From assembly GCF_963921235.1 (NCBI RefSeq), contig NC_086097.1, positions 47,928,001-47,992,000 of the forward strand: a stretch of 64,000 nt of DNA, read 5' to 3'. The translations under genes were made by a program, and so were the position numbers. A model generated the notes under the pieces. It searched no databases. It was given only the letters and a program-made list of their open reading frames with translations, and was not told where the DNA came from. Of the stretch, positions 4,641 to 59,000 are shown piece after piece; the stretch's first letter is position 1; each line of letters starts with the position of its first letter. This DNA is from Mobula hypostoma. Its lineage: Eukaryota.

Positions 4641-5529
4641 CCACTCTCTATTTGATGTTAGTTGATGAAGATTTGCATGCAATGGTGCATTTTGGAAGTT
4701 ATGTAACAGAGAAGGAGGTGAAAAACTGGGAGGCAATACAAAGTGGCGGAAGATGGGGGAAGTGGTTTGTCATTGGCAGAAGACTCATGGATGAACTTCA
4801 GTTTATAATGGTGGAGTAAGAGCTAGTAACCAGTAGTGTGTTGCAATGATCTATTCTAGAGGGGTGACATGTGTACATGAAAGAGGGTTTCTGCAGAGGA
4901 GCTGAAGCTTGGATGGATTTTGGCTCATTTATGATGATGGCCAAGGACAGATATGGATAATTGTCCATGTTTGCTGGGTCAAGTAAATGGTCTCATTCAG
5001 CCTCAGGCTTTTGCCAATAATGAGAAGGGAGTTGGTGACTAGAGAACATTTTTTTTAATTGTGGAAATCTAAGACAGTAGTTTCAATCTTTGATATTCAG
5101 ATAGAGGAAATTTTAACTCATCTGGTGCTAATTTTCAAACAGTCTTACCAGTGAGAGAGTAAGGAATGAAAAAGCCCAAAGACAGTGCTGAGTTGAGTGA
5201 TGAGGAAGTTCGGGTTAGCAAGCTGGCTTGCAGTCAGAGTGGGTTACCAAACTGATGATTAGGTACACAGAGACAAGTGGAAGTGAGCCAAAGGGGGATA
5301 GAGGGTCTGAAGAGTACGAGTTATGCAGAATTGATCACAGCAACAGTAAACAATGCATTATAGTTAAAGATTACTATAAATTTGGGGGTGATGGTGAAAT
5401 ATTGGTCAAGCCATGAGCAGTGAAACCCTGGCAAAGAAACCTGACTGCAGTAAAAACTTTCCGATAGGAAAGTCATCAGCTCAGGAGTTGGCAGCTCTTC
5501 AGGAGGGTGGATTGCAAGCTAAACAAAGT

Positions 5530-5633
5530 ACACAAAATTCTGCAGGAAATCAGCAGGCCAGGCAGTACCTATGGAAAAGAGGGAACAGTTGACGTTTAGG
5601 GCCGAGACCCAGATGATGCTTCTCTTGTTTGTG
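5530..5633 (-). mobile_element. Tiny PLE 3'-end insertion with inverted tail remnant and 14-bp TSD
   Basis: aagctaaacaaagt (5516-5529) / aaactaaacaaagt (5634-5647); interior matches the PLE 3' terminus. Confidence 0.7.
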
Positions 5634-5856
5634 AAACTAAACAAAGTTCTATTACAATTTAAGCAACTGCCCAGCAGATACACGACTAAATAGCTGAGCA
5701 TTGCATTTTTGCAGAACACAACAAAGCAGAGGATCTACATAATAAAGACCATAACTAGGTTACATAGAGTCGGACAGCTTGGAAACCGGCCCTGCAAATG
5801 ATTCATGCCAATAAAGTTGCACCATCTAAGCTTGTCCTGTTCGCCGGAATTTAGCC

Positions 5857-8137: not shown

Positions 8138-8164
8138 GTTTAGTCTGTAACTTTCTAAACCTTT

Positions 8165-8740: not shown

Positions 8741-8929
8741 TAAAACATATTATTGTACCTCCCTCTACCAGTTCTTCTGGCATACCACTCTTTGTGTAAA
8801 ACAAAAGTTGCCCCTCAAGTTCCTGTTAAATCTTAGCTCTCACCTTAAACCTGCGCCCTCCAGTTACCTGATTCCATAAATAATAGAGAACGCTGTTACA
8901 CAATAGAATAGCTACATAACAGAGAGCTG

Positions 8930-9780
8930 AATGTGTGATATTTAAGAACAGTATGAACCATAGGAACATCCAAGAACTGAATAGACAGTTATGAGATATG
9001 ATAGGAAGTGAATGCAATTTGTGTCAACAAAGTTTTTTTTAAGTAGTTTCTGATTGGCTAAGTGTGTGGCAACTCATCCAATAAGAGGAAAGCAGTATTA
9101 AGTGGAGGGCTATTTTAGAGCCGCCGTTGTGCCAGTAGCAATTTTAGTGCAGTGATTCTGCATATAGCAAGAAGGCATAGGTGAGAAGCAGGTAAGAATG
9201 AGTGGGATTTTTGCTTTCCTATGGATCTGTGACTTTCGAATTAGTGTAGACAATATGGTAGTGTGGCTAGTGTAATTTTCCTGCTGCAGTATGTGGGAAG
9301 TCAGAGAGTCTCCTGTTGGTACAGTTGGATGCACTCTGGATTATCTGGGAGGCTGAGAGCTTTTGTAAGGTGATCATAACTCGGTGCAGGCTACAGTTAG
9401 ATGTGTGACCACCAGGAGAAGTGAGGGGAGTAGGCAGATGATACAGGGTTCTGCAGAAGAGCGTCAATGGCTGAGAGGAAACCTGATAGAGGCTCTTAAA
9501 TTGAGAGGCAAAAATAGTTTAGATCAGAATTTTTTTCCCCGGGTAGAAATGTCAAACACCATGGGATATGCTTTTAATTTGGGGGAGGGGGAGATTATAA
9601 AGGTGACATGAGGTGGAAGTTTCTTTTAATGCAGAGAATTGTAGGTGCCTGGAGTAGTTTGCCAGGGATAGTAGTGGAAACAGGCAGTTTGGTGGAAGTT
9701 AAGAGACTTTTACATTGGCACATGGATGTGAAAGGAATGGAGGGAAATGGATAATGCACCGAAGGAGGATATTTAAGATA
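8930..9780 (+). mobile_element. CR1-type LINE remnant (5' piece joined to 3' piece)
   Basis: LRGNLIEA, FFPRVEMSNTMG and RIVGAW-like ORF2 C-terminal motifs. Confidence 0.55.
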
Positions 9781-9789
9781 AAATTGGTT

Positions 9790-10190
9790 TTATTTGTCAC
9801 ATTTAAGTGAAATGCATTGTGTGCGTCAAATCAGATCAGCGATAATTGGGCAGTCCGCTATTCTAGCGCCAACATAGCACGTAGACAACTGAAGAGCAAA
9901 TCTGAAGATCCTGGAAATTAAAGCAACACACACAAAATGCTGGAAGAACTCGGCAGGCCAGGCAGCATCTATGGAAAAGAGTAAACAATCGATCTCGGCC
10001 CGAAACGTCGAATGTTTTATTCTTTTCCACATCCACAACTCACTAGCCATAACTGTACGTCTTTGAAATGTGGGAGGAAACCGGAGCACCCGGAAGAAAC
10101 CCACACGGTTACAGGGAAAACCGGCAGCGACAAGAATCCTGACCTGACGCTGTGAAGTGTCGCGTTAACCGCTACGCTGCCGTGCCGCTT
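9790..10190 (-). mobile_element. HE1/V-type tRNA SINE carrying a nested inverted PLE-end insert (~9891-10030)
   Basis: gtgggaggaaaccggagcacccggaagaaacccac V-domain; A-box head gcggcacggcagcgtagcggttaacgcg on the minus strand. Confidence 0.75.
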
Positions 10191-10251
10191 TATCTTGGCA
10201 TACATTAGCATCAAATTCGGCTTATTATACGCCGAATTGTCTTTCTGGTGC

Positions 10252-10389
10252 AATGCACACAAAATGCTGGAGGAACTCAGCAGGTCAGACATCATCGATA
10301 AAAATGAATAAACAGTTGACATTTCGGGTCCTGATGAGGGGTCTCGGCTCGAAATGTCAAGTATTCATTATCTGCAGAATCTCGTGTGT
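10252..10389. mobile_element. Mini inverted PLE-end insertion with hammerhead core and 15-bp TSD
   Basis: TSD ttgtctttctggtgc (10237-10251) / ttgtctttccgatgc (10390-10404); inverted ttgacatttcg / cgaaatgtcaa; core CTGATGA-GGGGTCTCGGCTC-GAAA-T-GTC at 10331-10358. Confidence 0.75.
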
Positions 10390-10674
10390 TTGTCTTTCCG
10401 ATGCTGTGTTGTTCTGTGAAGGACGGATTTAATTTGCAATTGAATGTCCTGTGTCAGAGCTGACTTTTTAAAAGAGAATTAGAAGCTTGGTGTATATTAG
10501 AGTAAGTTTTGCTGTCACAAACTATGATAAGAAACAGTATTACTTGAAAGCAGAATGAATATCTCGCGGTTTAAATTGACTCCGCGATATGTTAGAGACT
10601 AGTCTATCGTGAACAACAGATTCTGTGATACAGATTAGAGTTTTCTAAACACGGGATGTGTGTGCTCTGCACAT

Positions 10675-10760
10675 AGATAAGGGGTGTGGCGGTTGTCTGT
10701 GACGTTGCGCTCTGGCTTGATTGGCTCTGCACACACCACCTCCTTTTCCTTCTCTAGATT
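10675..10760 (+). promoter_or_regulatory. Putative TATA-less ASPG proximal promoter
   Basis: Clustered AGATAA (10675), GGGGTGTGGC GT/KLF box (10681), TGACGT CRE-like site (10700) and inverted CCAAT (ATTGG, 10720) within 100 bp of the ATG, in a locally CpG-rich region (~10100-11400). Confidence 0.5.
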
Positions 10761-10772
10761 GTCCTTGTGCTG

Positions 10773-17000: not shown

Positions 17001-20000
17001 CTTTAAAAATTTGTGCATTAAAGTGGAGTCATCAGAAAATTCTGATTGGTATAGAGAGGTATAAAATTCTTGAAAGGATTTGTTTATCTCATCATGATCA
17101 ACCGTTAGAGTACCATCTTTTTTACGAACCTTAACAATCTGGCATTTAACCGAAGCTGATTTCAGTTGATTAGCCAGTAGTTTCCCAGTTTTATCACCAT
17201 GTATATAGAATTGACCCCTAGTTTTAATTAATTGATTTTCAATCGAAGATGATAGTAATAGACTATGTTCCATTTGAAGTTCGACTCTCTCTTTAAAAAG
17301 CTCCTGATTAGGAGTAATAGAGTATTTCTTCTTGATTTCTTTGATCTTGCCAACCAGCTTAAGTATTTCATCATTATTTCGCTTTTTCAGTCCAGCAGAA
17401 TATGAAATAATTTGTCCACAAATATATGCTTTAAAAGTGTCCCATAGTACCCCACTGGAAATTTTTACATCTCCTTGTGATGTATCAGTTTCAAGACATT
17501 TTAACTTCAACTTTTCTAGTATTTCTGTTAAACTTTTCTTTTCCTCAGTCACTCTGGGCCCTTGATTCTCTGCATTTCTAGGACTGTTCTTCAATGGCTC
17601 CTTGCATATTTCCTTGGAAGTAAGTGGATGATTACATTGATTAACCAGTGGTGCAGATGGATTGTTAGCTCTTGTATTAGGAGGAATGCTGTATAACAAG
17701 AGTTATACAGCATTTAGGGAAACTCTGTTAAACCACACCTGTTCCTGGAACAATGCTGCCCATACTAGTTAGGAATGCACAGGAACATTCCCTTCAGCAC
17801 ACATTATGCCAAACTAATTAGATTATGATTAAATGTCTAAGCACACCTATCCCTTCTGCCTTCACAATGGTCATATCCTTCAATTTCCTGCATCTTTGTG
17901 CCTACCTAAGGGCCCCTTAAATGCCTCTATTGTATTTGCCTCCACTATTGCACTTGACATTGTGCTGCAGATACCAGCCACTCCTTGTATTTAAAAAAAA
18001 ATGTATCTTACCCAATCAATCTCCTTTCATCTTGGTTTCTCACCTTAAACGTATTTCCTCTAGTATTAGACATTTCAACCCAGTGGGGGGGGGGGGTGGG
18101 ATGTACTAGCTGCCCACTCTATCTAAGCTTCTATAATTTTATAAACTTCTAACCAGTCTCAACCACTGTTTTTGGGGAAAACAACCAACGTTTTTCTAAC
18201 CTCTCCCAGTGTCCTATAATGCAGGCAGCATCCCTGTAAACCTCTGCATCAATTTCAAAGCCCCTATATCCTTAATTGAATGTAATAATATAGGGGTGGC
18301 CCAACTAGAGATTTATAAAGCTGCAATGTAATTTCTCAACTCTTAAACTTGATGCCTCAACATCACTCAAGATGGTGATATTGGCATGGGGGAATTTCGA
18401 TCTGGAACTAACCCTTCTATAGCTGTTTAAACTTAGAAGATTAATAGTGATTTGGTTGAAGTATTTAAGAAAGGAAGTGGAACTGGTAGAGTAGAAAGGC
18501 CACTCATAATTGAGGCATCTACTTGTGGAATAAGTAGGCAGTTTCCAAAAGAACTACTCCATTTTAGTACCTTCTATGCGCAATAGATGGCAGAACTTCT
18601 GAAATCTCTTTAAAAGCCAGTTGATGCCATGGTAAATGCAGATTTTAAAATCTGAGATTGATAACTTTTGTTAAACACAAATGCTGAGGAATATTGAGCA
18701 AATGCACGTGCAGAGGCTACATAGGTTAGGGAAGAGGTGACATACTGAAACCTAATTTTATACAATTTCTGCCTCATAATGTTTTGTGAGCCTTGCAAAT
18801 AATATCAAGGTGTTCCATGGTGTTCCTGAACAACTAGATAGAGTATGTTTCATTAGTTTTTACCTATAAAATATTGAAACTCTTAGTGGACATGGAGAGG
18901 ATATTTCCTATAGTGGGAGAATCTAGGACCAGAGAGCACAGCTTCAGAATAGAAGGACATCCCTTTAGAACAGATGAAGAATTTCTTTAGCCAAGGGGAT
19001 GGTGAATTTGTGGAATTATTGCCACAGCTGACTATGGAGGCCAAATGATTGGATATATTTAAAGCAGAGTTTGATAGGTTCTTGATTAGTAAAGACATTA
19101 AAGGTTATAGAACATGGAAATCTACAGCACATTACAGGCCCTTCGGCCCACAATGTTGTTACTTTGGAAACTGCCTAGAATTTCCCTACCCCATAGCCAC
19201 CGATTTAACTAAGCTCCATGTACTTGTCTAAAGGTCTCTTAAAAGACCTTATTGTATCCGCCTGTACCACTGTCGCTGGCAGTACATTCTACCACTCTGT
19301 GTGGGGAAGAACTTGGCTCTGACACCCCCCTTGTATCTACTTCTAAGCACCTTAAAACTATGCCCCCTCGTGTTAGCCATTTCAGCCCTGGGGCGGCGGG
19401 GGGGGGGAAAACCTCTGACTATCCACACGATCAATGCCTCTCATACCTCTATCAGGTCACCTCTTATCCTCCGTCACTCCAAGGAGAAAAGACCAAGTTC
19501 ACTCAACCTAATCTCATAAGGCATACTTACTCCAATCCTGGCAACATCTTTGTAAATCTCCTCTGCACTCTGTAGTATCCACTTTCTGCCTGTAGTGAGG
19601 TGAGCAGAAGGCCGAACGGGGCTGTGAGGGGTAATAAGGCAATAAAGTGATGGTCCAAAGGAACTAATTCTGCTCCAGTGTCTTTCGGTTTAATTTAGTA
19701 ATGGGTAGTTCTAGGGTGAACACAAGATATTTAAAGGAAGGCAAATATTGTCTAAAAACTGTGCAAGGTAATATCAAATGAGAAGCTATTAAAAAAAACA
19801 ATAGAAGCATAATGCAGTATTAAAATAAAATAACATACATCAAAGTTGCTGGTGAACACAGCAGGCCAAGCAGCATCTGTAGGAAGAGGTGCAGTCGACA
19901 TTTCAGGCCGAGACCCTTCGACCAGTCTCAGCCTGAAACGTCGACTGCACCTCTTCCTACAGATGCTGCTTGGCCTGCTGCGTTCACCAGCAACTTTGAT

Positions 20001-23000
20001 GTATGTTGCTTGAATTTCCAGCATCTGCAGAATTCCTGTTGTTTGCGTTAAAATAAAATAAACTAGGTGAAGCTCAACTCTTTCACAGTTTTTGTTAATC
20101 TGGTTTTGTATTCACTTGCCTAACTATTGATGAGACCCAAAACCAGGAGATGGAACAAAGCTGGAACTCGAGCTAAACCCTTGTTCAGTAAAACCACACA
20201 ACTACAAAACTACAAAAACAACTACAGAAGTCAAACTCATCCCAATGAATGACTATTTGAATGGTTTATCTAAGAGCGTTCGAGGCATTGATACGATCAA
20301 TAACCATCAGTGAAAGTCAGCCTAGAATTAGTTGTCAGCTGAGCAATAAACAATGGTGGTTTTGGTTTGCTGTAACACCTTCCTTTTGAATGTGGTTACC
20401 TGCAGGATTTGAGCCTGGGGTTGATGCGGGTTAGAACAGCTGGTGATCAGTCCTTTGTTAGTGGTCCCAGGCTGTTACTTCCTTGTCGCAATGTTGCTTA
20501 TGGCTATACTGGCACTAGTGGATGGTTCAGTCGGGGTAGATTGAACCCTTCCAGGAGGAGATAAAGGTTCAGCTCTGTCTCTGCTGATCTGCCTGATTTC
20601 AGATCTCCCTCGTGTTTGCCTGATTAACTTGTTGGGCCTTTAGGAGTAGATGGCCACAACAGGCTGATGTGGCAATACCAGCAATTTCTGTCTATGATAA
20701 ATCTGTAGAGCAATTTAACCATTCGTTTGACAATCTAACCTGGTGTCCAGGAGTCCATTACAATACTGTCTGTCCTGAAGTGCAGCTCAAGACATGAATG
20801 ACTTCACCCTTCGACCAAGATCAGAATGGTTCCTTTTGTGCACCTGTCCATCTGTCTCGGATGTTGGACACTATCAGTATTGTATCCAACACCGTGTGGA
20901 GTTTTATTCCCAAAAGCACTTTGGCTGCAGCTCCCCACAGGCTTGGATGTGGTGTAGCTCAGTATGTCAACAGAAATGTGTTGAGAGCTTCGGTTGATGC
21001 TCCTTCCCCTTTTGATTTCAGAAGTGACTGAAAGTATCCACAACCTCTCTGCTTGGCTGTTGGACTGTGGAGTGAGGGGATGTGGATAACTCTGTTCTGG
21101 GACAATGTGGCAAACTGCTGTGAACTGAATTGAGTGCCATTGTCAGAAACAAGTGTTTCTGGCATGCAAAGCAGTTGACGATCTGCTACAACTGTTGAAT
21201 AGCAGCGTCTGTCATTGTTGATTTCATAGGTAATACATCTGGCCATTTCAAATGGGTATCATTCAGGCCAAGGTCGGGACACCTGTTGACTGGATCATTC
21301 TTGTCAACATGTGCTCTACTCCATGGGCTAGTAGCCTGAAGTTCTGGCTGTGGATCGGCTCTACTCGGGTTCTTTGCTGCCACAGAGCACTGAGAATGGT
21401 GCTTGCACATGTATGTACCTTCTCTGCCTATCGTCTGAAATGTGTGCCAAGCATCTCCAAACATGTCCACAGTTGAATAATGTATTAGGTTGGTAGAAGG
21501 CTATGACCTTTTCCTCAAACTTGACTAGCCATCCTTCAATGAAGTATCGGGAAATGTGCTGAAGAAGCGGATCTGCAGCTATTTCTGCTCTGATCTTGTC
21601 AACCGTGACCAGAAGATCTTCAATGGCATCTGATACAAACTGGTGGACTTCACAATCAATTAAAATCGCTCCCCATCTCTGATCTCCACAAGGCAGCTCT
21701 CCGGACCTAGCATAGCATTGGAGCCTTTGATCGATTTCCAAACTGTATATCACAGGCTCCAACAGTTTCTGTAACACAAACAAGACAAAGAACAAGCAGA
21801 AGGCGGAAAGTAGTGACCATCATTCAATTTTACGAATAAATTTGCCAAAACTGGTAATGAGTGCTGGTGTGTCTCTAAAGCTAAATTAAGATCAGTTGAG
21901 AAGGCAGCAGATGGTCTCATAGTACCATTGGCTTTCTTGATGATCACTATTGGAGCTGCTCAATGTGAGTAGTTGACAGCTTTTTATCACACCAGCTTGC
22001 GGTACGTGATCTAGCTCTTGCTCCATGATTGGTAAGGCTGTGTATGATACCGATGTTTTGGGACAGAAGACTGGCTTTGCCTCAGGACGGAAATGGAGTT
22101 TTGCTTGCCGTTTGGTGCAGCAACCTAAACCTTGAAACATTTACTGCCTAGTGCTGTTGCTGTTGTATGGTGTCAAGTACTGATCGTAGAATGGCATGAA
22201 CTGACTTGAGCTGAATTGCCAATGTCTTCATAGAGACTTCATCTAGAGGGATGCTCCAGAGATTAAGCTTGTCTATCTAGTGAGTTTGGATCAGGCTGCT
22301 TTGTTGGGTAACACGCACAGTTCACTTAGTTACCATTCAGCTTCCCCATGAGGTTCAGTTCACCAGTCAGTAGGAGGGTTTCACCCGGTTAAACTGCACA
22401 TGGAATGATGAGTTGATTTGACTGGTGTGGACCTGAGAGCTTGCCATGTGTGTTTAGAAATGACGGTGATGTCTGATGCCATATTGAGTTGTAGTTGATA
22501 AATAAACACATTGATGTAATGCCTCCTGGGGATGAAATCAACTTTGAACATGACCATTAAATTCACTGTAGATTTTCGTGGTTTTTGAAACTTCCTGAAC
22601 TTGTATTTTACTGGCGTAGATGACAGTGGAGGATGGCAAATGCTCCCTGTGTGACCATAAAATTGGTATTTGCTGCAAGTATTTCTTGTATTGGCAGTTT
22701 CTTCCATGATGCCATGCACCACAGTTCTGGCAAGCTGTGTTTATCTGCTTGGAGATGTGCGTGATGTCTGGGCCATTAGACACTGCATTGACCCTGGTCT
22801 GTTTGACCAGGTTGGAATCGTGTTTCAGGTTGATCAAATGCTGACATTCTTGAGTGGCAGCTTGAAGAGTCATACCAGCGTCTTGCTCCCGTCTGGCCAG
22901 GAGCTGTTGCAAATGCCTGCATTGCCTGGTGCCTGAAATCCACAAATAAAAATCAGACTCTTGAACTGCGATTCAGTCATGTTACCCAGCTTGAGCTTTT

Positions 23001-26000
23001 CACACTTGTGATTGATGATACCTGAATATGTAACAAACTCATTGGCATCATGCTTAACGAGTTTTGGGCTTTGGTAGCAAACACCGAAGAGATGACTATT
23101 CTCCAAAAATGCTTGTTAGCTATCAGACAGTTCCATCACATAAGTCGCACATGTTCTTGGGCAGAATTAATTTGAAATAATGCTCGTGTACAGCTGTACA
23201 CAATTTTCAGAGCAAAATCCACGTCTTGCACAACGCAACTTGGTTGCGTTCAAACGCAACTCTCGAAGCAGCATCAAACTGAAAATTGGTATGGACGCAG
23301 CAACTGAATCATCTGAATTCTGTCCAGTGTTTGACATCAATGTCATTGGACTCACTGATAATCAAAACCTTAATGAGCAAGTTAACTTCAGCTGGGCTAC
23401 CTCAAATTGAGTTTGCCTCTGTTGTATTGTGGCTAAGCCTTGCTGAAATTGCCATGTCGATATAATACAACACTTCACAGCCAATTTTGTGTTTGCTCAC
23501 CTGTTACTAATGAAACCCAAAGCCAGGATTAGAGCAGAACCAGAACTCAAAATAAACCCTTATTCAGTAAGACCACCCAGGTTTCAACTCAAAAGTACGT
23601 ACCAAAGCAGGACTATTTAAATGGTTTATCCAAGGCCCTTGGATGTTGAGAGGAATGAGGACCAATCAATGAAAGTCAGCCTGGGATTGGTTATCAGCTA
23701 AGTCCAGTCATTGGTTGTTTCAGCTCGCCATAACAGATTTTTAGCAGAAATTGTTCATTTTTGACTCCAGGAAAAAGTTGGTTGGCATCCCATTCTCAGA
23801 ATGCAACCCATATACAGACATCCCACCTCTCCTGGAAGTTCCGGAAGTCTCCCGCATATTGATAGTGGCTCCCTGACGCCCGGAAATTATATACAATATC
23901 CCGGAAATCGATTTTTATTCCCCCCCCCCCCCGAGAGGGAGAGTGAGCATCCTGATAGGTCTACTTAGCACGAGGAGAGACCAGTCAGTTTTCTCTGTGT
24001 ATGGACTTTACAGTCGACCTCAAAAATGATGAGTTTTGTCCGCTGCACTGTTTGCAACAGTGACTTTTCTATTGCCCATGGTGGGTTAAAATGTAAAAGA
24101 CATTGAGGTGAGTTTAACAGGTGTCATTTGTTCATTAGCATAGCTGATGTTATTTAAACTAGCTGGCTAGTTGCTAAGGAGCTACTCTATTGATGTCCTA
24201 CATGATGAGGCCAAACTCCCTGTAGACTTGCTTAAAGTTGTAATAGAATAAACATGATAATATAAGTACATATTTTCATGTAACATTTTCTGCATATACC
24301 CAATTTGGTTTACAGATTAGACAAAATCACAAAATTATTACATACACCCTTGGAGGTCGACCAGGGGGTGGGGGAGAGGGGGAATATGGGGTTGCGGGGG
24401 GGGGGGGGTTGCAAGGATTCTATCTCCCTGAAATGGTGGTGCTACTTCCCTGAAATGAGTTTTTGCAGGGTGGATGTCTGTATATATAATTTAATGACAG
24501 GCAATTTAAGCAAGCCATCGAAGATTTTATTGAAAGGTGTGTTAGTTTTAATGAAGCTTTCTTTTGTTTGCCATGCTATAACCTGCCAGGGTTATATTTT
24601 TAGGGATTTGTATTCAGGATTTTCAGGATTAATTGTATAAGATGCAAAAGCTATAAAAAGCCATATCTAGTTAAGGTGGTTTAAATATAACCTCGACCTT
24701 GAAATGTTGTATGATTGTTTTCATGCATCTTAAAATTCATGTGAAATCAAAAGGTTAAATAGAGTAATTTTTGTTAGTGGGGCTTTAGAGTTATTCCAGG
24801 AACTTGCCTAATTATGTCTGGGGGCATTTGATCCTGTGCCAATCTGTTTTTGCGCATCGTTCACATTGCACATGACTGCCTCTCAGTAATGCAATGGGCC
24901 AAGTAGAGTTACAACTCCAGGTGTGTAAAATCTAATCTTCTTGTGATATACAACTAAAATTCTTATGGCCCTTTATTTCCACATCCTGGAAAAGGTTTCA
25001 CTGTTAATGTAATGGTCTCTCTCTGTACAGAAGCAGTGTTTGTGTTATGGTTAGAGATAACTGGTGCTTTGGAATGTGAGCTGTCCAATCAGGGGAGTGG
25101 GTATTTGTGCATCTGACACTGGTCTGAGGTGAAGAGAGAAGACACTGCAGAGAACTAGTAGGATTCGACCTGGTGGGGTCCTTGATTCGCTGGAGCACTA
25201 CTGAGGATCGGTGAATATGATTTTCAGAAGAGTTGACTCCAACTTATGCACATTTGACTGTTTCATTATAATGAGCCCTGTTTTTTTTTTCCCTTTACTA
25301 ACCCATAACATCCATTAAATATTTCTTCAATCATATGCAGTGTGCTATCTGTTATTTCTTGGCACAGAGATATAACAGGGTAACAAATCACACAGCATTC
25401 ATATAAACCAGGATTTGGGGTGGGAGAGCCATCCCATTCTCATGGATTTACTGGGACCGGAGTGTGTATTCCCGAGATGTACCCGTATCAAGGAAACCAG
25501 AGTTTGATCAATATTTCCTGAACACTGATCAGTTAGGCTACTTTGTATATAACTATGAAGGCAGCCTCTCCAGTTCTCCAGACTTGCTGGGTTCTTTCTC
25601 TCCTTTTTCTCTACCATTTTATTATTGTAACCTGTAAGGTGATTTGAATCAAATATGTCTCCTGGACTAGAGAAAGCAAGATTTCCCGGTGGCCACACAT
25701 TTTAATTCCACGTCCCATTCCCATTCTGATACGTCCATCCACGGCCGCCTCTACTGTCAGGATGAAGCTACACTCAGGTTGGAGGAACAGCACCTTATAT
25801 TCCGTCTGGGTAGCCTCCAACCTGATGGCATGAATATTGACTTCTCTAACTTCTGTTAATGCCCCCCTCCCCTCACACCCCATGCCTTATTTATTTAATA
25901 TATATTTCCCTCCCTTCTCTTTTTTTTCTCCTTCTGTCCCTCTCACTATAACTCCTTGCCTGCTCTCCATCCTCTGGGCTCCCCTCCCCCTTCTTTCTCC

Positions 26001-29000
26001 CCAGGCTTCCTGTCCCATGATCCTCTCCCTTCTCCAGCTCTTAGCTGTATTCCCCCCCCCCCGTCTTCTCCTATCATTTTGGATTTCCCCCTCCCCCTCC
26101 CACTTTCAAATCTCTTACTATCTCTTCTTTCAGTTAGTCCTGACGAGGGGTCCTGGCCTGAAACATTGACTGTACCTCTTCCTATAGATGCCGCCTGGCC
26201 TGCTGCGTTCCACCAGCAATTTTTGTGTGTCACCTAGACCGTTTCTTTCGAGCCCATGTAGGGATGTCAAATGTGTTCACCCCTGGTCAACAGCTCAGTT
26301 TAGGAAATCCCCACATGAATCTAAATTAATTCACAATTTGTGCTTAACTTGTGTGTTTAATTATGTAAACATAATGTTGACTCCAGACCATCAAGTTGGA
26401 TTCAAAATGTTGCTATTCCTTTTGTAGCAGTCATCACCAAAAACACACTTAAATCTACAGTAACACGAGGAATTCTGCAGATGCTGGAAATTCAAGCAAC
26501 ACACATCAAAGTTGCTGGTGAACGCAGCAGGCCAGGCGGCATCTCTAGGAAGAGGTACAGTTGACGTTTCGGACTGAGACCCTTCGTCAGGACTAACTGA
26601 AGGAAGAGCTAGTAAGAGATTTGAGAGGGGGAGGGGGAGATCCAAAATGATAGGAGAAGACAGGAGGGGGAGGGATGGAGCCAAGAGTTGGACAGGTGAT
26701 TGGCAAAAGGGATATGAGAGGATCATGGGACAGGAGGTCCGGGGAGAAAGACAAGGGGGAGGGGAGGAAACCCAGAGGATGGGCAAGGGGTATAGTCAGA
26801 GGGACAGAGGGAGAAAAAGGAGAGAGAGAGAGAAAGAATGTGTGTATATAAATAATGGATGGGGTACGAGGGAAAGTGGGACATTAGCGGAAGTTAGAGA
26901 AGTCAATGTTCATGCCATCAGGTTGGAGACTACCCAGACAGAATATAAGGTGTTCTTCCTCCAACCTGAGTGTGGCTTCATCTTTACATAGAGGAGGCCG
27001 TGGATAATTCCACATCCCTTTCCCATTCTGACATGTCTATCCATGGCCTCCTCTACTGTCAAGAGGAAGCCACACTCAGGTTGGAGGAACAACATCTTAT
27101 ATTCTGTCTGGGTCGCCTCCAACCCGATGGCATGAACATTGACTTCTCTAACTTCTGCTAATGCCCCACCTACCCCTCGTACCCCATCCGTTATTTATTT
27201 ATACACACACATTCTTTCTCTCTCTCTCCTTTTTCTCCCTCTGTCCCTCTGACTATACCCCTTGCCCATCCTCTGGGTTCCCCCCCCCACTTTCCTTCTC
27301 CCTGGGCCTCCCGTCCCATGATCCTCTCATATCCCTTTTGCCAATCAACTGTCCAGCTCTTGGCTCCATCCCTCCTCCTCCTGTCTTCTCCTATCATTTT
27401 GGATCTCCCCCTCTCCCTCCCACTTTCAAATCTCTTACTAACTCTTCCTTCAGTTAGTCCTGACGAAGGGTCTCGGCCTGAAACGTCGACTGTACCTCTT
27501 CCTAGAGATGCTGCTGCCTGGCCTGCTGCATTCACCAGCAACTTTGATGTGTGTTGCTTAACTCTACAGTATTGAAATAGGGAATCTCCAGTTGCTCAAG
27601 TGATTGAACTATCTTCTCTCTGTTTTGGGCATGGGGTCTTCTTTACAACAGTTTGTCTTCAGAATTCTTGCTGAACTACACCCAAAATACTTCATTCTTA
27701 TACACATCAGCTCTGTGTTGTCATGCTTTGATTCCGTTGGACTTGTGTGAGCCTTTCATTGGTTTTGTCCCAAGGCAACAGAAAGGAGAAGAGCAATAAA
27801 GTAATGCTAAGTAACTATTTGCCTCTGTCATTCCCTTGCTTCTCTTTGAGTCAGGGCAATTCTAATCGGTTACAATCAGTACGGGCCAAGCACTGGGCAC
27901 TCAGGTTAATTTAATTCCAATACTACTGCCTTTCCTTACACTACAGTTCTCTTCCCAAAGAGCAGTTCATAAGCAATGTATTTGGAAATAATCTCTGATT
28001 TAGCAGCATTAGTAGGGACTTCACTCTGTTCACTTTCAGTTGTTCTGATCCAGCCATTCCTGAGCAGAGATACTACATGAAACATTTCACAAAATGGTTG
28101 CACGTGCAGGCTTTCAAAATGGCAGCCTTCATTTTTCTTACCAATTGGCAACAGCAAAGACATTTGTCTACTTCCACTGTCCTGGATGTACGAGGAGTGA
28201 TTGATAAGTTTGTGACCTAAGGTAGAAGGAGTCAATTTTAGAAAACCTAGCACACTTATTTTTCAACATTGTCCCCTCCTACATTTACACACTTAGTCCA
28301 GCAGTCGTGGAGCATACAGATCTCTTCTTTGTAGAAGTTGTCATCTTGGACCTCCAGAAAGTGGTCCACAGCAGGGGTAATTGATAAGTTCGTGGCCTAA
28401 GGTAGAAGGAGATGAGTTACACAGCTCTCGTTACATGCACATGCAGGTCAACTCTGAGTGATTATGCAGAAAGTTTGAAGTTAATAACCCATCTCTTTTT
28501 ACTTTAGGCCATGAACTTATCAATCGCCCCTGCTGTGGACCCCCTTTTGGAGGTCCAAGACACCGACTTCTACAAAGAAGGGATCTGTATGCTCTACGAC
28601 CGCTGGACTAAGCGTGTAAATGTAGGAGGGGACTATGTTGAAAAATAAATGTGCTAGGTTTTCTAAAATTGACTCCTACCTTATGCCATGAACTTATCAA
28701 TCACCCGTATTCCAGTTGGCTTTTACAGATTGTAATTTCTTCATGGCCTACAGTTCAAAATTGTCAAAGAAAATCAAAGAAAAACAATGTGTCAACCTGA
28801 AAACGCTATTAACAATTGTTTTGATAAGGTGGTTCTGTTTGTCAGACACTAATTATCTCAGCCTTCTGGAGTTCCTCAGGTATATTCCTCTTCATTTGTT
28901 GCCTTGGAATTAACCATCTTTCTTTCGTTTATCGTTAGTACTGGCACCAAAAGAAAATGCTTTTATCAGTGCTCTTCGAAAACAACCGGGCTTACATGAT

Positions 29001-44000: not shown

Positions 44001-47000
44001 ACAGGGTAACTGGAGAATGTACACTGTGGCTATTTTGTTAGATACATAAGGTACCCAATAAAGTGTCCAGAGTGTAGATAGCATACTGCAAAAACAACTG
44101 CATGACCACAGCAAGATCAACTATAGATTTTGTCCTTGACAGTGGGTTCAAATAACCTCTCCAAGCAGGTATTAACCTCCATCAAATATGAGTACTTAGC
44201 AGTCTATGGAAATCAAAATGTATATTTTAACTTGATCTAATAGTTTTTTAAAAAAAAGTCCATCAGTAAAAGGAAATGTAAAACAAATCTTCAAGAAAGG
44301 GAAGATAAATAAGAAATTGTTATCACTAACACATGCAGGGGAGTTATCTGAATTTAAAATAAATGCAGATATTAACAGAACTAAATGCTAAAACGGAAAA
44401 GTAACACCGATGATGGAAATCTGAATTTGAGCATGCGCTGTCTAAACAGCTGTACATGTGGAGCGAAGCAAATAATATTTCGGGGCAGTGATTTGATGAC
44501 AGGTCATTAACTTGAAATATCAATTGGTTCCCTTTGTTCAGAGGCTGCTTGTTGTGCTAAGTGTCCTGAATTTTTCGGTAAATGCTGTGAACTATGAGCA
44601 GAAGGGTGGAGTACAGAAGATTTGTGTTGGATTCTATGCAAAGCTACAGCAGACATTAACCTCTTGTTTTTGGATTTTTCCTATACTAGTCCCACAGTTA
44701 TGGACTGCTGCTATGATTGCAGAGTTGGCAGTTTTTAATAAACCCTTCCTTCCCTCCTCATCAATTAAGCCAGTGTAATATTTTTACTTTAATATTTATG
44801 TTTGTGGTCTTCTGCTGTTGTAGCCCATCCACTTCAAGGTTCAACATGTTGAGTGTTCAGAGATGCATTTCTGCACGACACTGTTATAATGTGAGATTAT
44901 CTGAGTTACTGTCACCTTCCTATCAGCTTGAAGCAGTCTAGCCATTTTCTGACCTCTCTCATTAACAAGGCATTTTCAGAACTTCCGCTCACTGGAGGTT
45001 TTTTGTTTCTCGCACCATTCTCTGTAAATTCTTGAGACTTGTGCATGAAAATCCCAGGAGATCAGTTTCTAAGATACTTGAACCACCCCGTCTGATACTG
45101 ACAGACATTCCACAGTCAAAGTCACTTGGATCACGTTTCCGATTCTGATGCTTGGTCTGAACAACAACTGAACTTCTTGACATGTCTGCATGCTTTTAAG
45201 CATTAGTTGCTGCAATGTGATTGGTCAATTAGATATTTGCGTTAATGAGCAGATGTACCTAATAAAGTGACCCCTGAATGTATATGGAACCAGTTAATAA
45301 ATTTGAAACTGGTTATGACACTTAGAAAAACTAAGCTGAGCTAGATAGAAAAAATATCCTCTTCATGCCCTCAGCATTTCAAAACAATTTGTTCAAAGTC
45401 AGTGGAAAGAAGCAATTCTAAATCTTATTCATTTCCCTTAAAAAATCAATGTAGTTACTTTCTCTTTTCTGTGTAATGCCTTATTATTAAGCTACTTATT
45501 TTGTCACGTTGCTGACAAATTGATTATCAAATTTGAAGGCTGAGAAGACAGCAATTAAATTATAATCCCAAACTTTGTATCATAAGATTTATTTGTTTGA
45601 ATCAGTTTTGGCAGATTTTTTAAATCTTGGCCACCGTTGGATTTGTAATTATCTCCCTTGCTACTCTCCACCCCAACATTCCAAAAAGTGTCTGTTTCCT
45701 TCTCCTTAAAATTGTGAATCGGTGAACAATGTGGAATTTTGGATTGCCACCTGTGGCAGAAAATTAAATCTCTTATTTGTTTTGTTCTCTACGAGGCTTC
45801 CTGTTTTCAAAAATGGGGAGTCAAATACTACCAATACATTCAATCTCCTTGGCAGCAAACTGCTTCTATTTTTTTTAAAGCAATTCACAAATTAAAGATA
45901 AAAGGCAGAGATCTTAAACTTGTGCACTGAAATCATTAGTGAACAGAATTACAATGACATTTATTTCAAAGCTTTATTTAGAAGGCATGGTTTAGGTAAT
46001 CTCTTGTAATTGTGATCAAATTAAGTATGTTCTGTAATTGGATAAAATCCTAGAATTCGCATTTCTTTGCTATCAGAGATGATTGTCACAAAATAGCTTA
46101 ATGGTAAGCCCAGAAATTGGGAAATTGCTTTCTGAACTCTCCACTCTGGAAATTGCACTAGCACATAATTCACCAAAAGTCATGCCATTGAAATACATGG
46201 ACCTTGTGTAACCTGTAGTATCGAAACCCACTGAGTGTGCCAAAAGATGTTTAGATTAGTAATTTCTCAATGACTAGGTGCTTTGTCTATTGGTAACTGT
46301 TCTTTTTGGCCACAGAAGTTATGTATCACTGTCACATTTTAATTATTATTGGCAACTTTGAAAAAGTGAAGTACATTTTTAATAACTCCCTTTCTATCTC
46401 TCTCCTCCTCTCCTTTTATTTCCCTTTCTATATGATTTAGCTTTAGCTTACTTATTCCAAGTTCCACCTCCTGGTTGAGTCTAATTCTTAAGGCTAATGA
46501 CTCAGCAACAAATATACAACTTAGTTTTAATTCCTCCCAGGTCTGATACAGAGTGCTGTAGCAAAATGAATTCTCAGTAAATTCTAATGCAAAAGCCAAT
46601 AGTCTGTAGCAAATTAGTGTGTAATGAATGGCTTGAGCATATTATAAAATCCAAACTTTTATTTATACTCAAACATTTCTACTTTTTTGATTTGCTATTC
46701 ATGGATTACTTTCATAGTATTATAAGCTTGGGTCTATCACAAACTTGTGCCAAGCCCTTCTCATAAACGGGATTCTGCTGATGCTGGAAACCTGGAGTAA
46801 CGCACACACAGTGCTGGAGGAAGTCAACAGTCGGGCAGCATCTATGGAGAGGAATAAAAAGCCATGGCCCAAAACATCAGCGCTTTAGGACTGGAAAGGA
46901 AGGGGGAAACACCAGGATAAAAAGGTGGGGGGAGGGGATGGGTGAAGCCAGGTGGGTTTGAAAGGTAGAGGGCTGGAGAAGGAATCTGATAGAGGAGAAT

Positions 47001-50000
47001 TGACCATGGGAGAAAGGGAAGGAGGGGCACCAGGGGAATTGATTGGCAGGTTGATGAAAGGGTTAAGAGGCTAGAGTGTGGAAAAGAAGGGGAAAGAGAA
47101 AGAGTTACCGGAAGGAGAAAGCTATGTTCGTGCCTTCAGGTTGGAGGCTTCCCAGACAGGATATATCCTTCCTGATGCAAGGAGACCAGAACTGCAAGCA
47201 GTACTCTGGATGTGGCCTCATCAGTACCATATTCAGTTGTCGCATAACCTCCCTGCTCTTAAATTCAATCCCTCCAGCAATGAAGGCCAACATTCCATTT
47301 GCCTTCTTGATAGCCTGCTGTACTTGCAAACCAACCTCTTTACGATTCATGCACACACACTCCCAAGTCGTTCTGCACAGCAGCATGCTGCAATTTATTT
47401 TTATCATTTAAATTATAATCTGATCTTCCACTTTTCCTTCCAGAGTGGATGACCTTGCATGTATCAACATTGTACTCTGTCTGCCAGACTGTTGCCCACT
47501 CACTTAACCTATCTATATATCTCTCTGCAAACTCTCTGTATCCTCTGTGCAATTTGCTTTTCCACTCAATTTAGTGTCACCAGCAAACTTAGATGCACTA
47601 CACTCAGTCCCTCTTCCAAATCGTTAATGTATACCGTGAACAGTTGTGGGCCCAGCACCAACCCCGCAGTACGCTGCTCACCACTGATTGCCAACCAGAG
47701 TAACACCCATGTATCGCAACTCTCTGGTTTCTATTAGTTAACAATCCTCAATACATCACCCCCAACTCAATGCATCCTTATCTAATGGATTAGTCTTTTA
47801 TGTGACACCTTATTGAACACCTTCTTGGAAATCCAAGTAAATAACATCCATCTGTTCCTCTCTATCCACTGTTCATTATATCCTCAAAGAACTCCAGTAA
47901 GTTTGTCAAACAGGACCTTCCTTTGCTGAATCCATGCTGTGGCTGCATGATTGATCCATTTCTTTAAAGATGCCTCTCGATTTCTTCTTTTATGATACCT
48001 AAATGATAGCATTTTCCCAACTACAGATGTTAAACTAACTGGCCTATAGTTACCTGCCTTTTGTCTACCTCTGTTTTTGAACAGTGGCATGATATTCACC
48101 TTCTTCCAATCTGACGGGACCTGCCCAGATTCAAAAGAATTTTGGCAGGTTGACTCAGTGTTTAAGAAGACATACGATGCATTGGCCTTCGTCAATCGTG
48201 GGATTGAGTTTAAGAGCCGAGAGGTAATGTTGCAGCTGTATAGGACCTTAGTGAGACTGGAGTACTGTGCTCAATTCTGGTCACCTCACTAGGAAGGACG
48301 TGGAAACCGTAGAAAGGGTGCAGAGGAGATTTACAAGGATGTTGCCTGGATTGGGGCGCATGCCTTATGAGAATAGGTTGAGTGAACTCGGCCTTTTCTC
48401 CTTGGAGCGATGGAGGATGAGAGGTGACTTGATAGAGGTGTACAGGATAATGAGAGGCATTGATCGTGTGGATAATCAGAGGCTTTTCCCCATGGCTGAA
48501 ATAGCTAGCACGAGAGGGCATAGTTTTAAGGTGCTTGGAAGTAGGTACAGAGGAGATATCAGGGGTAAGTTTTTTATGCAGAGAGTGGTGAGTGCTTGGA
48601 ATGGGCTGCTGGCGGCGGCGGTGGAAACAATAGGGTCTTTTAAGAGACTCCTGGATGGCTACATGGAGCTAAGAAAAATAAAGAGCTATGGGTAAAGCCT
48701 GGGTAGTTCTAAGGTAGGGACATGTTTGGCATAGCTTTGTGGGCCGAAGGGCCTGTATTGTGCTGTAGGTTTTCTAAGTTTCTAAATTATCACCAAGGCC
48801 TCAACTATAACCTTTGCCATTTCTTTCAGCACCCTGGGATGTATTCCATCAGGACCAGGTGATTGGTCTATCTTTAGGCCCACAAGTTTGCTCAGCACCA
48901 CCTCTTTAGTGATAGCTACTATATCGAGGTCCTCACCTGGAAGTACTGTTTGGGAATGGAGGTGAGGGAGGAGGTGAATGGGCAGGTGTAGCATTTGTTA
49001 CTTGCAAGGATGTGTACCAGCAGGGAGATTAGTGGGGATGGATAAATAGAGGAAGTGATTGTTCCCCATGGAAACCAGAGAGTTGGGGGGAGGGGGGCGC
49101 GGAAAGAGATTAAAAAAAAAAAATCACCAGAAGTGGAATTTCCTGGTGGTCAACCATTGTAATTCCAATTTGCATTCCTATTTCGACATGTTGGTCCATG
49201 ACTGCTGCTTTTGCCATGATGAGGTCATTCTCCAGTTGGAGGAGCAAAGCCTCATTCTGTCTAGGTAGCCTGTCTAGGTGACCTATCCATTGGAGTTGGT
49301 GTGGCTTAATTGTGGTGGGAATGCTGTTGATGTTGGTCCTTTCCAGTACGCTGGTGTTACTGGGTCTGTCCTTCCAGCTGATCCTCAGTCTTGAAGTTCT
49401 TTGGCATTGTTTCAGGTCTTTCAGTTGTCTACTGTCGGTGGTCCATGATTCAGTACTATTGGAAGGACAAATGCTCTATAGATCAAATAATAGATGTGCA
49501 ATTGCAATTGTTTGGATTCACTCAATGGAATCTGATGTATGAATATCTAATACAATGTACATGCAGTAATACCCATATACCTGGGTTATCCATCATGCTA
49601 AAATCAGGATGGTTTTCAATACCTCCAGAATTTCCTATCTCTTTATCTACTTGAGACTCATCTCACAGCATAGTTTCACAAAACTCAGCTTTGCCTTTTA
49701 GGAAGCTTTTGCTTGACTAAAATTTGTCTTTATCCCTTTGAGAAAGGGGACCAAACACTTCCCTGTAACATGCCTGATAATATGGTTGGCACAACAAAGG
49801 TTGCACTCTTGAAAGGAAATGATCGACGCCACCTCTTGGTCAGCTGAGCAATCAAAACAGTCCCATATTAATTTGTCTATCATGTTTAAAATGTAATATT
49901 TCAAGTACTGTAATAGTCTTTCCAAATGAGGTAATGAATAAATAATCTAATGTGTTAACAATCTTCAACTGCCTATGTTCAATGTTTCAATGCCAAGTGC

Positions 50001-56000: not shown

Positions 56001-59000
56001 CCACCCCCCGATCCTTCACTATTCCTGTTTCCCTCACCTTGTCTCCTTTCCTGCTCATTACCTCTTTCTGTTGCCTTTCTTCCATGGTCTTCTATCCTCT
56101 CCTATCAAGGTCCCCCTCCTCCAGCCCTTTATCTTTCACCAATCAATTTCCCAGCTTTTTACTTCACCCCTCCCCCTCTTCCGATTTCACTACCTTGAGC
56201 TTCTGCCCTGCTCTCCCCACCCCCATCTTCTTGCTGTGACTTCTACCCTTCCTTTCCAGTCCTAAAGAAGTTCACGGCCCGAAATGTCGACTCTTTACTC
56301 TTTTTTTGACATAGCTCCTGCATGGCTTGCTGAGTTCCTCTGGCATTTTGCATGTGTTGTATAAATCAATCCAAATGCTTTTTATCAGAATTGTTAATCA
56401 TTAGCTCACTCAAAATGAAAGGAGCATTCAGTAATCTGCCAATTAAGATGCAAGAGTACAAATAGAATGTACTTCTGCTGCTGACTAACCTGGTAATTTA
56501 GTGATGGCTAGTTGAATAGTTTGTTTTCCTTGCATCTATTTTACTATTGCCTTCTAAACGCATTAAGTACTTATTCTAGATGATTTCAAACAAGATACAA
56601 TAAAGCACTAATTTCAAAATGATACCAAAATCAGTTCAACTTGTACAATATTTTGAATTGGTTATTATAACAGTAAATTATGTTCTAAATATTGAGTCAA
56701 ATTTGGCTTTGATTGCAAACTAACCACTCAGAATAATTCAGTCATGTTCAAGGTAAATTTATTATCAAATTACCTATACAGTATGTCACCATATACAACT
56801 CTGAGATTCATTTCTTGCAGGCATACTCAATAAATCCATAGTAGAATCAATTAGAGACAGCACCAAGTCCAGAAGACAGTAAACTGCAAATGCAGAAAGA
56901 AAAGTGGTAGTAATTTAAAAAAAAAGGCAATAAATATCAAGAACATGTGACGAAGAGTCCTTGAAAGTGAGCCTATAGGTATGGAAACATTTCGATGATG
57001 ATTTGATCCTTTGGTTCAAGAGCCTGATGGTTGAGGGGTAATGACTGTTCCTGAACCTGGTGGTGACTCCTAAGGCTTCAGTACCACCTTCCTGATGACA
57101 GCAGCGAGGAGGGAGCGTGACCTGGGTGGTTCTGCTTTCCTGTGACAACAGTTCATGTAGATGTACTCAATGGTGGGGAGAGCTTTATCCGTGATGGACT
57201 GGGCGGTATGCACTACATGTGTAGGATTTTTCACTGAATGACGTTGATGTTTCTTTACCAAGCTGTGATGTAGTCAGTTGCTATACTCTGCATGACACAT
57301 CAATAGAAGTTTGTCAAAGTTTTTAGATGTCATACCAAATCTTGTTTAAATTTCGGATGTCAGCTGAATGCATATTCTGAATGTATAATTCCATGACATT
57401 TAAATTTCAGGCTCTAGCTGATGTAGGGCTTATTTCTGGCTATGATATGACACCTGAAGCTGCTTTATCAAAATTGTCTTATGTACTGGGCAAGACTGAA
57501 CTGAGCATTGAAGAAAAGCGCAAGGTAATGTATAGCAATGAATTGTGTAGCATTTACAATCTTCCTAGTATAATGTTCTTGCACAATTCCAGCAATCTAA
57601 ATTTGAAGCTGCACGGGGAGTGGAGAGAATGATTGCATCCTCGCTAAAGGATTGCCACAATCTTAGTGCTTTACCGAAAGAATGGTCAGTGTCCCATTGG
57701 CTGAATTATTTCCATTTCATTCCTCTGATGAAATTTATTGTCTTTTATTGGGATGTTCTGAACAATTTGATGTTAGGAATTTGGCATACCGTACCTATTC
57801 ACACACAACTACTCAGGGTACTGGAACATAAATACACTGTCTCTTTAAGGGACTTGTGTGAGAAGACTCCTATGTGGATTGAGGAGCGCCACAGTGTAGT
57901 GGTTAACGTGACTCTGATACAGTTCAGGTCATCAGAGATCAATTCTGGCACGGTTTGTAAGGAATTTGTACTTTCTCCCCGCGACCATGTGGGTTTCCTC
58001 TGGGTGCTTGGTTTCCTCCCACAGTCCAAAGACATACCAATTAATTGAATGAATGAAATTTATTTCGGTCAGTACAAACATAAAAAGCATCATTTTCAAC
58101 GATGATTTCATAGGACAAAATTACAACAAAAAAAAACAGATATTCTTTAAAACAGACCGAAAATTAGTAACTTAATTGATCGTTGTAAATTATCTTGTGA
58201 TTAGGTTGGGGTTAAGTAGGTAGGTTGTTGGGTGGCATGGCTTGTTGGGCCAGAAGAGCCAGATCCACAGTTTACTCAATAAATAATACCCTGGATTTTC
58301 TTAAAATGGTTTAACGGCAACATGTGCTTGCAAATCTAAAACATAGTAAATAGCCTCAAGAAGTTTCGCGGAAGCACAATGAAACAATATTTGACTCCGA
58401 TTTTTGGAACAGCAGGAGTCAGAACAAAAGTGGGTTTTAAGAAGCCATGGTAGAGCTTGGAGGAGGGATTCTCGGAGGCTTACATCACCGGCATCAGAAG
58501 CCACAAATGCCTGTCTAGAGCAGTTGCATTTGATTAACGTGACTGGGGTGTTGTAGGGCAGAGGAGAATACGAGTGAAAGGCAAACTCATGAGGAATTGG
58601 TAAAATAAGAATGAGAGTTTAAAAAAATAATGTACTGGGAACAAAGGTAATTAACATACGAGGTTGATGTGTGAATATGCTTTGGTAGGCTTGGAAACTG
58701 CCAGCAGAGGTAATGAAAGAAGAATGTTCTGTATTACTAGCTGGAAATATTTAACCATGTTATGAAGGTTAAATTTTACTTGGTTGATCTTTTCTGTGTA
58801 GCAGTTAACCTTTGCAACACCTGCTGTAAGTTGAGCTTCAATTCCTGCCATTGTTGGTAAGGATTTTGTATTTCTCCCTATGTCTGCATGGGTTACTTCT
58901 GGGTGCTCTGATTTCTCCCACGTTCCAAAGATGTACGGTACTGTGCACAAGTCTTCGGCACACGTGTATAGCCAGGGTGCCCAAGACTTTTCAACAGTAC

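What the first reader, a model, noticed from the sequence alone, without database searches (positions are those of the whole stretch)
5516..56375. Recurrent asymmetric two-ended PLE integration signature: inverted 3' ends, tail on one side only, 12-15 bp TSDs
Seen: six independent insertions share one design. They are 5530-5633 (TSD 13/14), 10252-10389 (13/15), 19834-20047 (14/14), 26463-27556 (14/15), 32613-34610 (12/12) and 55287-56360 (13/15). In each, both boundaries are element 3' ends facing outward. One end carries all or part of the ~40-nt tail (gcttgaatttccagcatctgcagaattcctgttgtttg); the other stops just before it at ...GTGTGTT. Arms range from ~15 bp to ~2 kb and often duplicate the same sequence, unlike L1 twin-priming inversions. 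Established: PLEs can have inverted terminal repeats and tails. Inference: both staggered nicks prime reverse transcription at two fixed RNA positions ~40 nt apart, possibly on two RNAs held together by the dimeric hammerhead.
Basis: partly seen in the sequence, partly recalled or inferred. Interest (0 to 1): 0.75.

Follow-up and report, generated by a model that had tools for sequence, protein, structure and literature searches.

The report
Head-to-head Penelope insertions, one-sided tail
These are decayed copies of a Penelope-like jumping gene, probably in a ray or shark genome, each built from two truncated pieces joined head to head with a ~40-base tail on one end only; this layout is already published, and it likely arises because both cut DNA strands start copying the element's RNA, one at each of two start points already measured for a related element.

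Summary
All six insertions have flanking duplications at the stated places (each reached by at most 4 of 1500 random boundary pairs), two outward-facing element 3' ends, and the tail on one end only. The element is an RT plus C-terminal GIY-YIG Penelope-like element (PLE) with the Neptune/Nematis linker motif and a minimal-hammerhead motif. The layout is published (inverted 5'-truncated copy, 30-40 bp tail 'often only at one end', TSD). For anole Poseidon, nicking and extension of both strands and two RT start sites bracketing the tail were shown in vitro in 2024. Corrections: ends form two clusters 7-10 nt wide, not fixed points; two of six insertions have non-overlapping arms, as in L1 twin priming; two one-armed candidates and one odd end were not counted. 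Arm geometry argues against simple fold-back in at least three of eight two-armed units. A hammerhead-dimer tether is unsupported: hammerhead-less Naiads make the same structures. What stays open is the coupling (one end of each kind per insertion), best read as two primings on one RNA. Ordinary, with one testable mechanistic lead.

The parts
5516..5647 (.). Insertion 1 with TSDs (5516-5529, 5634-5647): tailless arm 5530-5611 on minus strand, about 22-nt tail-end arm 5612-5633 on plus strand; arms do not overlap
9878..10040 (.).
10237..10404 (.). Insertion 2 with TSDs: tailless arm 10252-10328 on minus strand; plus-strand arm with hammerhead motif, an internal deletion and a partial tail ending at 10389; 3-nt shared sequence at the inner junction
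19820..20061 (.). Insertion 3 with 14/14 TSD: tailless arm 19834-19920 (minus), tailed arm 19925-20047 (plus); arms 95% identical over 82 columns and share 4 private sites
25656..26239 (+). One-armed, tailless, 5'-truncated copy 25668-26227 with a possible 10/12 TSD; a candidate exception to the two-ended rule
26448..27571 (.). Insertion 4 with 14/15 TSD: tailed arm 26463-27006 (minus), tailless arm 27005-27556 (plus); arms 93% identical, nearly equal in length, 2-nt shared sequence at the junction
   Evidence: (contig of organism C stops at 27557)
32601..34622 (.). Insertion 5 with 12/12 TSD inside a SINE head: 2-kb tailless arm on minus strand carrying broken RT, Cys linker and GIY-YIG coding sequence (32998-34574), and a tail-only arm about 34571-34610 on plus strand; arms meet at 4-6 shared bases without overlap
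46766..49271 (.). Old two-armed unit: tailed arm on minus strand interrupted by a LINE, plus-strand arm 49127-49271 whose outer end is lost; not testable for the end rule
55269..56375 (.). Insertion 6 with degenerate TSD: tailed arm 55287-55605 (minus), tailless arm about 55609-56360 (plus) reaching about 450 nt further into the element
45..1217 (+). Reference copy c1 used for coordinates: open frame 45-785 with CX4CxxC linker and GIY-YIG, 3' UTR, minimal hammerhead motif about 1081-1117, tailless site about 1177, tail 1178-1217; other end lies outside the window
63961..64000 (+). Young 5'-truncated copy running off the window, with no recognisable inverted arm on its left

Best explanation
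These are insertion units of an endonuclease-bearing, Neptune-like Penelope element, each made of two 5'-truncated arms joined head to head between a 12-15 bp duplication, and they likely form when both staggered nicks prime reverse transcription, one at the tail end of the RNA and one about 40 nt upstream, probably on a single RNA. Shown here: the anatomy, the TSDs, two clusters of ends, one tail per unit, short shared sequence at several inner junctions. Shown elsewhere for Poseidon: both-strand nicking and extension, two start sites bracketing the tail. Inferred: a protein dimer nicks both strands 12-15 bp apart; each 3'-OH starts a cDNA at one of the two sites; the tail-primed cDNA either stops on reaching the upstream-primed hybrid (tail-only arms, 5530 and 32613) or runs on by displacing it or by using a second repeat of a tandem transcript (overlapping arms); the two cDNA 3' ends are joined through a few shared bases and each strand is filled in, giving the TSD.
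For: Tail at exactly one end in 7 of 7 two-armed units with both ends in the window; best-case chance under two independent choices 0.016 for six, 0.008 for seven. Two end clusters with an empty gap of about 30 nt. The tailless arm reaches further into the element than the tailed arm by about 105 nt (5530), 454 nt (55287), about 2 kb (32613) and 33 nt (26463), so it cannot be a fold-back copy of the tailed cDNA, and the tail cannot be copied from a tailless cDNA. In 32613 the coding arm reaches 34574 and the tail arm begins within 4-6 bases of it; contigs of 4 of 4 runs laid join 32617 to 34575 on opposite strands, so that tail is the natural continuation of the tailless end. Two SINE paralogs in the window carry the 32613 target once. 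Arms of 19834 share 4 private sites against 1 and 0. In vitro data for Poseidon (PMC11167929).
Against: Two one-armed candidates (25668-26227, 63961-) and one end at neither site (10027) show the rule is not absolute. Five of the seven complete units (and the 46771 unit) have overlapping arms, which one RNA explains only with displacement or a tandem transcript, neither shown. In 10252 and 46771 the tailed arm reaches further, which fold-back also allows. Arms of 26463 show no excess of shared sites over another copy (3/6/4, 1/7/5, 7/7/5), so common template is not shown there; shared sites in 19834 could be later conversion. The in vitro work is on a different clade and did not follow both strands of one target molecule. 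The genome-wide end table could not be read.
Confidence: 0.6

Rival explanations
1. Both nicks prime, but on two RNA molecules, one per protomer of an asymmetric protein dimer that makes one protomer use the tail site and the other the upstream site.
For: Overlapping arms up to about 550 nt (26463) need no displacement; Poseidon protein is predicted to dimerise.
Against: Needs an extra rule to give 7 of 7 one-tailed units; does not explain why the 32613 tail arm stops within 4-6 nt of the upstream site; in vitro no difference in start site between strands was seen.
Confidence: 0.2
2. One priming event followed by fold-back: a single cDNA snaps back and copies itself, and endonuclease resolution leaves the tail on one side (self-priming and EN-resolution ideas of PMC3846280 and PMC8557442).
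For: Near-perfect hairpin geometry in 19834 and 9891; geometry of 10252 and 46771 allows it; proposed in print.
Against: Requires the tailless arm to lie inside the span of the tailed arm; violated clearly in 3 of 8 two-armed units (5530, 32613, 55287), modestly in 26463 and marginally in 19834 and 9891. The tail was later mapped to the interval between two RT start sites.
Confidence: 0.1
3. One reading: two RNAs are held together by a dimeric hammerhead ribozyme and each is primed by one nick.
For: A minimal hammerhead motif with a palindromic helix III region lies about 65 nt upstream of the tailless site; such motifs are proposed to act as dimers (PMC4209133); seven short arms stop inside the motif.
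Against: Naiads lack canonical hammerheads but form the same inverted units and one-sided tails; catalytic mutants, and a 5' truncation that removes the first half of the core, left Poseidon insertion active in vitro; a symmetric RNA dimer does not explain the asymmetry.
Confidence: 0.05
4. Each unit is two separate insertions, or a later rearrangement, that happen to lie head to head.
For: The family is very abundant (summed contig depth over the arms is thousands of times that of unique DNA).
Against: One TSD spans each unit; the SINE target of 32613 is otherwise intact and single-copy in paralogs; a contig of organism C stops exactly at the TSD base 27557 and goes on 305 nt without the arm; arms within a unit belong to the same subfamily wherever they can be compared.
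Confidence: 0.03

Closest known systems
Canonical EN+ PLE insertion unit (Penelope of Drosophila virilis, Pen2a_Av of Adineta vaga, Naiad; PMC3846280, PMC8557442 Fig. 2)
   Same: Inverted 5'-truncated copy at the 5' side giving inverted repeats around the unit, a 30-40 bp tail often at one end only, a TSD around the whole (8-10 bp in A. vaga).
   Different: TSDs here are 12-15 bp; all units in this window are heavily truncated, without a full ORF or direct pLTRs; the papers call the tail optional and, in the passages read, give no count of one-tailed units.
Poseidon of Anolis carolinensis (PAc) in vitro (PMC11167929)
   Same: Both target strands nicked and extended; RT starts at two internal sites whose interval is the tail; hammerhead upstream of the start sites; predicted protein dimer.
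   Different: Different clade (no CX2-5CxxC linker in Penelope/Poseidon); its main text does not link the two sites to inverted units or TSDs; the PAc start region is described as AC-rich while the ends here are G/T-rich on the sense strand.
Neptune and Nematis clades of PLEs
   Same: RT, then CX2-5CxxC linker, then GIY-YIG with two cysteines inside the motif; minimal hammerhead motif.
   Different: No tree against named clade members was made, so Neptune versus Nematis rests on the vertebrate host; no microsatellite target bias is evident at the six sites.
L1 twin priming (mechanism recalled; PMC2837659 seen as listing and abstract start only)
   Same: Second nick primes on the RNA upstream of the first; inverted arm, TSD, short shared sequence at the inner junction; 5530 and 32613 match this geometry.
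   Different: In L1 it is a minority outcome with variable second site and non-overlapping arms; here it is the majority outcome, the second site is nearly fixed, and arms often overlap.

Membership tests
Endonuclease-bearing PLE (C-terminal EN) | RT followed by a C-terminal GIY-YIG endonuclease in one ORF | tested here: met
   tblastn of RT+GIY-YIG proteins P0006, P0010, P0011 covers 34574 to 32998 in order, with one frame break; window RT piece 46% identical to the P0006 RT; Pfam GIY-YIG on 45-785 at E 0.00048, below the curated cut-off; Pfam RVT_1 not hit by the window pieces themselves
Endonuclease-bearing PLE (C-terminal EN) | CCHH motif with two cysteines between GIY and YIG | tested here: met
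   CxxC between the GVIY and LYIG words and two downstream histidines in the 45-785 frame
Endonuclease-bearing PLE (C-terminal EN) | Inverted or direct pLTR units with optional 30-40 bp tail and TSD | tested here: met
Endonuclease-bearing PLE (C-terminal EN) | Minimal type I hammerhead motif in the terminal repeat | tested here: inconclusive
   Core words and helices I and II present; 85.9% of cells paired versus 14-44% when slid, but no covariation above shuffles (340 of 500); no Rfam hammerhead match at gathering score or at E up to 10; cleavage not tested
Neptune clade | CX2-5CxxC linker upstream of GIY-YIG (shared with Nematis, absent from Penelope/Poseidon) | tested here: met
   CX4CxxC at residue 114 of the 45-785 frame; definition from PMC8557442
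Neptune clade | RT phylogeny grouping with named Neptune elements | not tested
   no named clade references were available among the fetched proteins
Penelope/Poseidon clade | No CX2-5CxxC linker | tested here: not met
   linker motif present
L1-type twin priming (works-like comparison) | Non-overlapping inverted arms with short shared sequence at the junction | tested here: inconclusive
   met in 2 of 7 complete two-armed units (5530, 32613), not met in 5 of 7
L1-type twin priming (works-like comparison) | Both cDNAs copied from one RNA molecule | not testable with these tools
   indirect only: 19834 arms share 4 private sites, 26463 uninformative

The most novel reading that the evidence does not exclude
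Twin priming on one RNA is the default integration route of Penelope-like elements: a dimer uses the two programmed start sites once each, one per nicked strand, so the inverted arm, the one-sided tail and the TSD are all products of a single reaction and no separate second-strand priming step is needed.
Probability: 0.45. Interest if true: 0.5.

Novelty: already known. Interest (0 to 1): 0.2.

Why it matters
The structure is the published standard for these elements, so as an observation it is ordinary. The one useful lead is the coupling: if every two-armed unit has one end of each kind, the two start sites measured in vitro are used once each in one reaction, which would fill the step that the 2024 Poseidon paper leaves open (second strand and resolution) and can be tested with that existing assay and with a genome-wide count. 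PLE RTs are the sister group of telomerase, so their priming chemistry has some wider interest.

Tried and rejected
No whole genome is held for this window, so the genome-wide tabulation was not run. Pattern scans of viral and metagenome contigs gave one hit each (L001, L002) that matched only the short pattern and were dropped as chance. Protein-based scans of viral and genome contigs found no relative. Laying contigs of four runs on 19000-35300 covered three of the six insertions only; its loose-end and joint tables were cut (25,245 and 11,005 rows not shown), so the two-peak distribution could not be read: one listed pile of 509 contigs ends at the tailed end 26462 in one run, and no pile at a tailless end was among the rows shown. 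A complete empty site with a single TSD copy was not seen in any listed contig; the organism C contig is a hint only. Folding of the terminal RNA was not distinguishable from shuffles (z from -1.96 to +1.66); a conserved 8-bp pairing between the tail and an upstream word shows no compensatory change, so no structure is claimed for the start sites. Rfam found no hammerhead. One RT reference was in the wrong frame and is uninformative; it was redone. Searches for TSD partners of the ends at 46771, 50842 and 11451 found none credible. Equal cDNA length as a rule (suggested by 26463) was rejected because 19834 and 10252 do not show it. No complex or structure prediction was run, since no intact ORF is in the window.

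Full report
Check of the observation. Their flanking duplications match at 13/14, 13/15, 14/14, 14/15 and 12/12, and the sixth has a degenerate duplication with a fuzzy start. Against 1500 random boundary pairs from the same window, scored the same way, 4 reached the score of the two weakest and none reached that of the other four. Each unit has two element 3' ends facing outward and the tail on one side. The tail calls for the right ends of 5530 and 10252 rest on 12-20 bases; they scored higher against tails than against tailless ends (20 vs 14, 30 vs 26), the second only narrowly.

What the element is. The long arm of 32613-34610 carries, on the minus strand, broken RT, linker and GIY-YIG coding sequence in that order: tblastn of three full-length RT plus GIY-YIG proteins covers 34574 to 32998, and a 164-residue piece is 46% identical to one of their RT domains. 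[quoted passage not shown] The three named homologues among 10 hits are from a stingray and two sharks at 74, 65 and 55% identity, so the host is probably an elasmobranch. A minimal hammerhead motif lies about 65 nt upstream of the tailless end: helices I and II pair in 85.9% of cells against 14-44% when slid, without covariation above shuffles, and Rfam does not detect it. It fits the minimal descriptor described in PMC4209133.

An unselected count. A profile scan of the whole window gave 17 ends that could be placed on the coordinates of the copy at 45-1217: 7 tailless at about 1172-1178, 9 tailed at about 1208-1217, 1 at about 1127, none between the two clusters (six positions read by eye). 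Left out of this count: the copy at 63961, which runs off the window, and two old diverged ends (11451, 50842). Eight units have both boundaries in view: the six, a seventh two-armed unit inside a SINE at about 9891-10027, and a one-armed tailless copy at 25668-26227 with a possible 10/12 duplication (3.5% of null). So 7 of 8 are two-armed and 7 of 7 two-armed units have exactly one tail; in the seventh the other end lies about 50 nt short and the TSD is weak (10.8% of null). If each arm chose its start site independently, all six would be mixed with probability at most 0.016 and all seven at most 0.008. The young copy at 63961 has no left arm. The rule is thus strong but not absolute.

One event or two. 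The 32613 unit sits in the head of a SINE; two paralogous SINE copies in the window carry the duplicated word once, and 183 contigs of one run continue before 34612 with a consensus ending like the left flank. In the same call a 1770-nt contig of organism C is laid from 27557, the first base of the right TSD of the 26463 unit, and goes on for 305 unlaid bases, whereas contigs of organisms A and B run into the arm (27534, 27538). This suggests the site is empty in C, but the left flank piece was not among the rows shown, so a single-copy TSD was not seen directly.

Mechanism. Mapping the inner (5') ends of the arms tests fold-back. If one tail-primed cDNA folded back and copied itself, the tailless arm would have to lie within the span of the tailed arm. 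It reaches further by about 105 nt in 5530, 454 nt in 55287, about 2 kb in 32613 and 33 nt in 26463; by 6-13 nt in 19834 and 9891 (not decisive); and lies within it in 10252 and 46771. A tailless cDNA cannot supply the tail. Two primings on RNA are therefore needed at least for the first three. One RNA also gives the one-tail rule for free. Its weak point is the overlapping arms (5 of 7 complete units), which need displacement of the first cDNA or a second repeat in a tandem transcript; neither is shown. Arm comparisons help little: 19834 arms share 4 private sites against 1 and 0, 55287 arms group together 14 against 8 and 4, and 26463 gives no signal.

What is known. [quoted passage not shown] PMC3846280 (passages) describes a 31-bp tail on one of the inverted pLTRs and 8-10 bp TSDs, and proposes self-priming. 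PMC11167929 (parts 1-2 of 4, covering the main text; passages) shows for anole Poseidon that both strands are cleaved and extended, that RT starts at two sites whose interval is the tail, that hammerhead catalytic mutants do not alter insertion, and predicts a protein dimer; it leaves second-strand synthesis and resolution open and does not discuss inverted units. Its three text supplements held none of the four terms searched; supplementary figures S1 and S2, which map genomic ends, could not be seen and may bear on the coupling. PMC4209133 (passages and section 5) notes hammerhead pairs 100-700 bp apart on opposite strands. The 2026 retrozyme preprint was seen as passages only and added nothing. 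I found no paper stating the one-site-per-nick model in searches, but the library lacks most subscription papers; Evgen'ev and Arkhipova 2005 and Arkhipova 2006 were not read and may contain related models. L1 twin priming is recalled, with PMC2837659 seen as a listing. Earlier notes of this scan report the same layout in this genome and others; they are unchecked and are not counted as support.

Verdict. Real, correctly described in the main, and already known as an architecture; the two-site priming half of the inference is published for a related clade; the hammerhead-dimer half is unlikely. The remaining lead is the coupling of the two sites within one insertion, most simply on one RNA, which can be tested by a genome-wide count and in the existing in vitro system. 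Interest 0.2.

Noticed in passing
window 5611, 9992, 10330, 19922 (inner junctions): Seven short arms have their 5' ends inside the roughly 30-nt hammerhead motif (positions 1082-1109 on copy c1), mostly upstream of the predicted cut, as if RT stalls there on uncut RNA.
   Followed up: partly
window 26463-27556: The two arms are almost equal in length (about 548 and 547 nt on the reference) and their 5' ends lie 33 nt apart; a single case, not repeated in the other units.
   Followed up: partly
window 28193-28706: A 510-bp palindromic, MITE-like element (arms about 90% complementary, internal direct repeats); a contig of organism C skips 28188-28707.
   Followed up: no
window 32601-34700 and 9770-10192: Two of the PLE units lie inside copies of a SINE-like repeat, which gives paralogous empty sites.
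   Followed up: partly
window 1132-1139 with 1191-1198: A conserved 8-bp complementarity between a word upstream of the tailless site and a word in the tail, kept in seven copies but without compensatory changes.
   Followed up: partly
window 14998-15086: A nearly perfect 89-bp AT-rich palindrome next to a (TG/TA) microsatellite, unrelated to the PLE ends.
   Followed up: no
window 50842-50936 and 11370-11460: Old, diverged PLE ends with tail-like sequence, probably other subfamilies; partners not found.
   Followed up: partly
protein P0002: A stingray protein annotated by its source as a kinase-domain isoform is 74% identical over the whole PLE C-terminal frame, likely an element caught in a gene model.
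   Followed up: no
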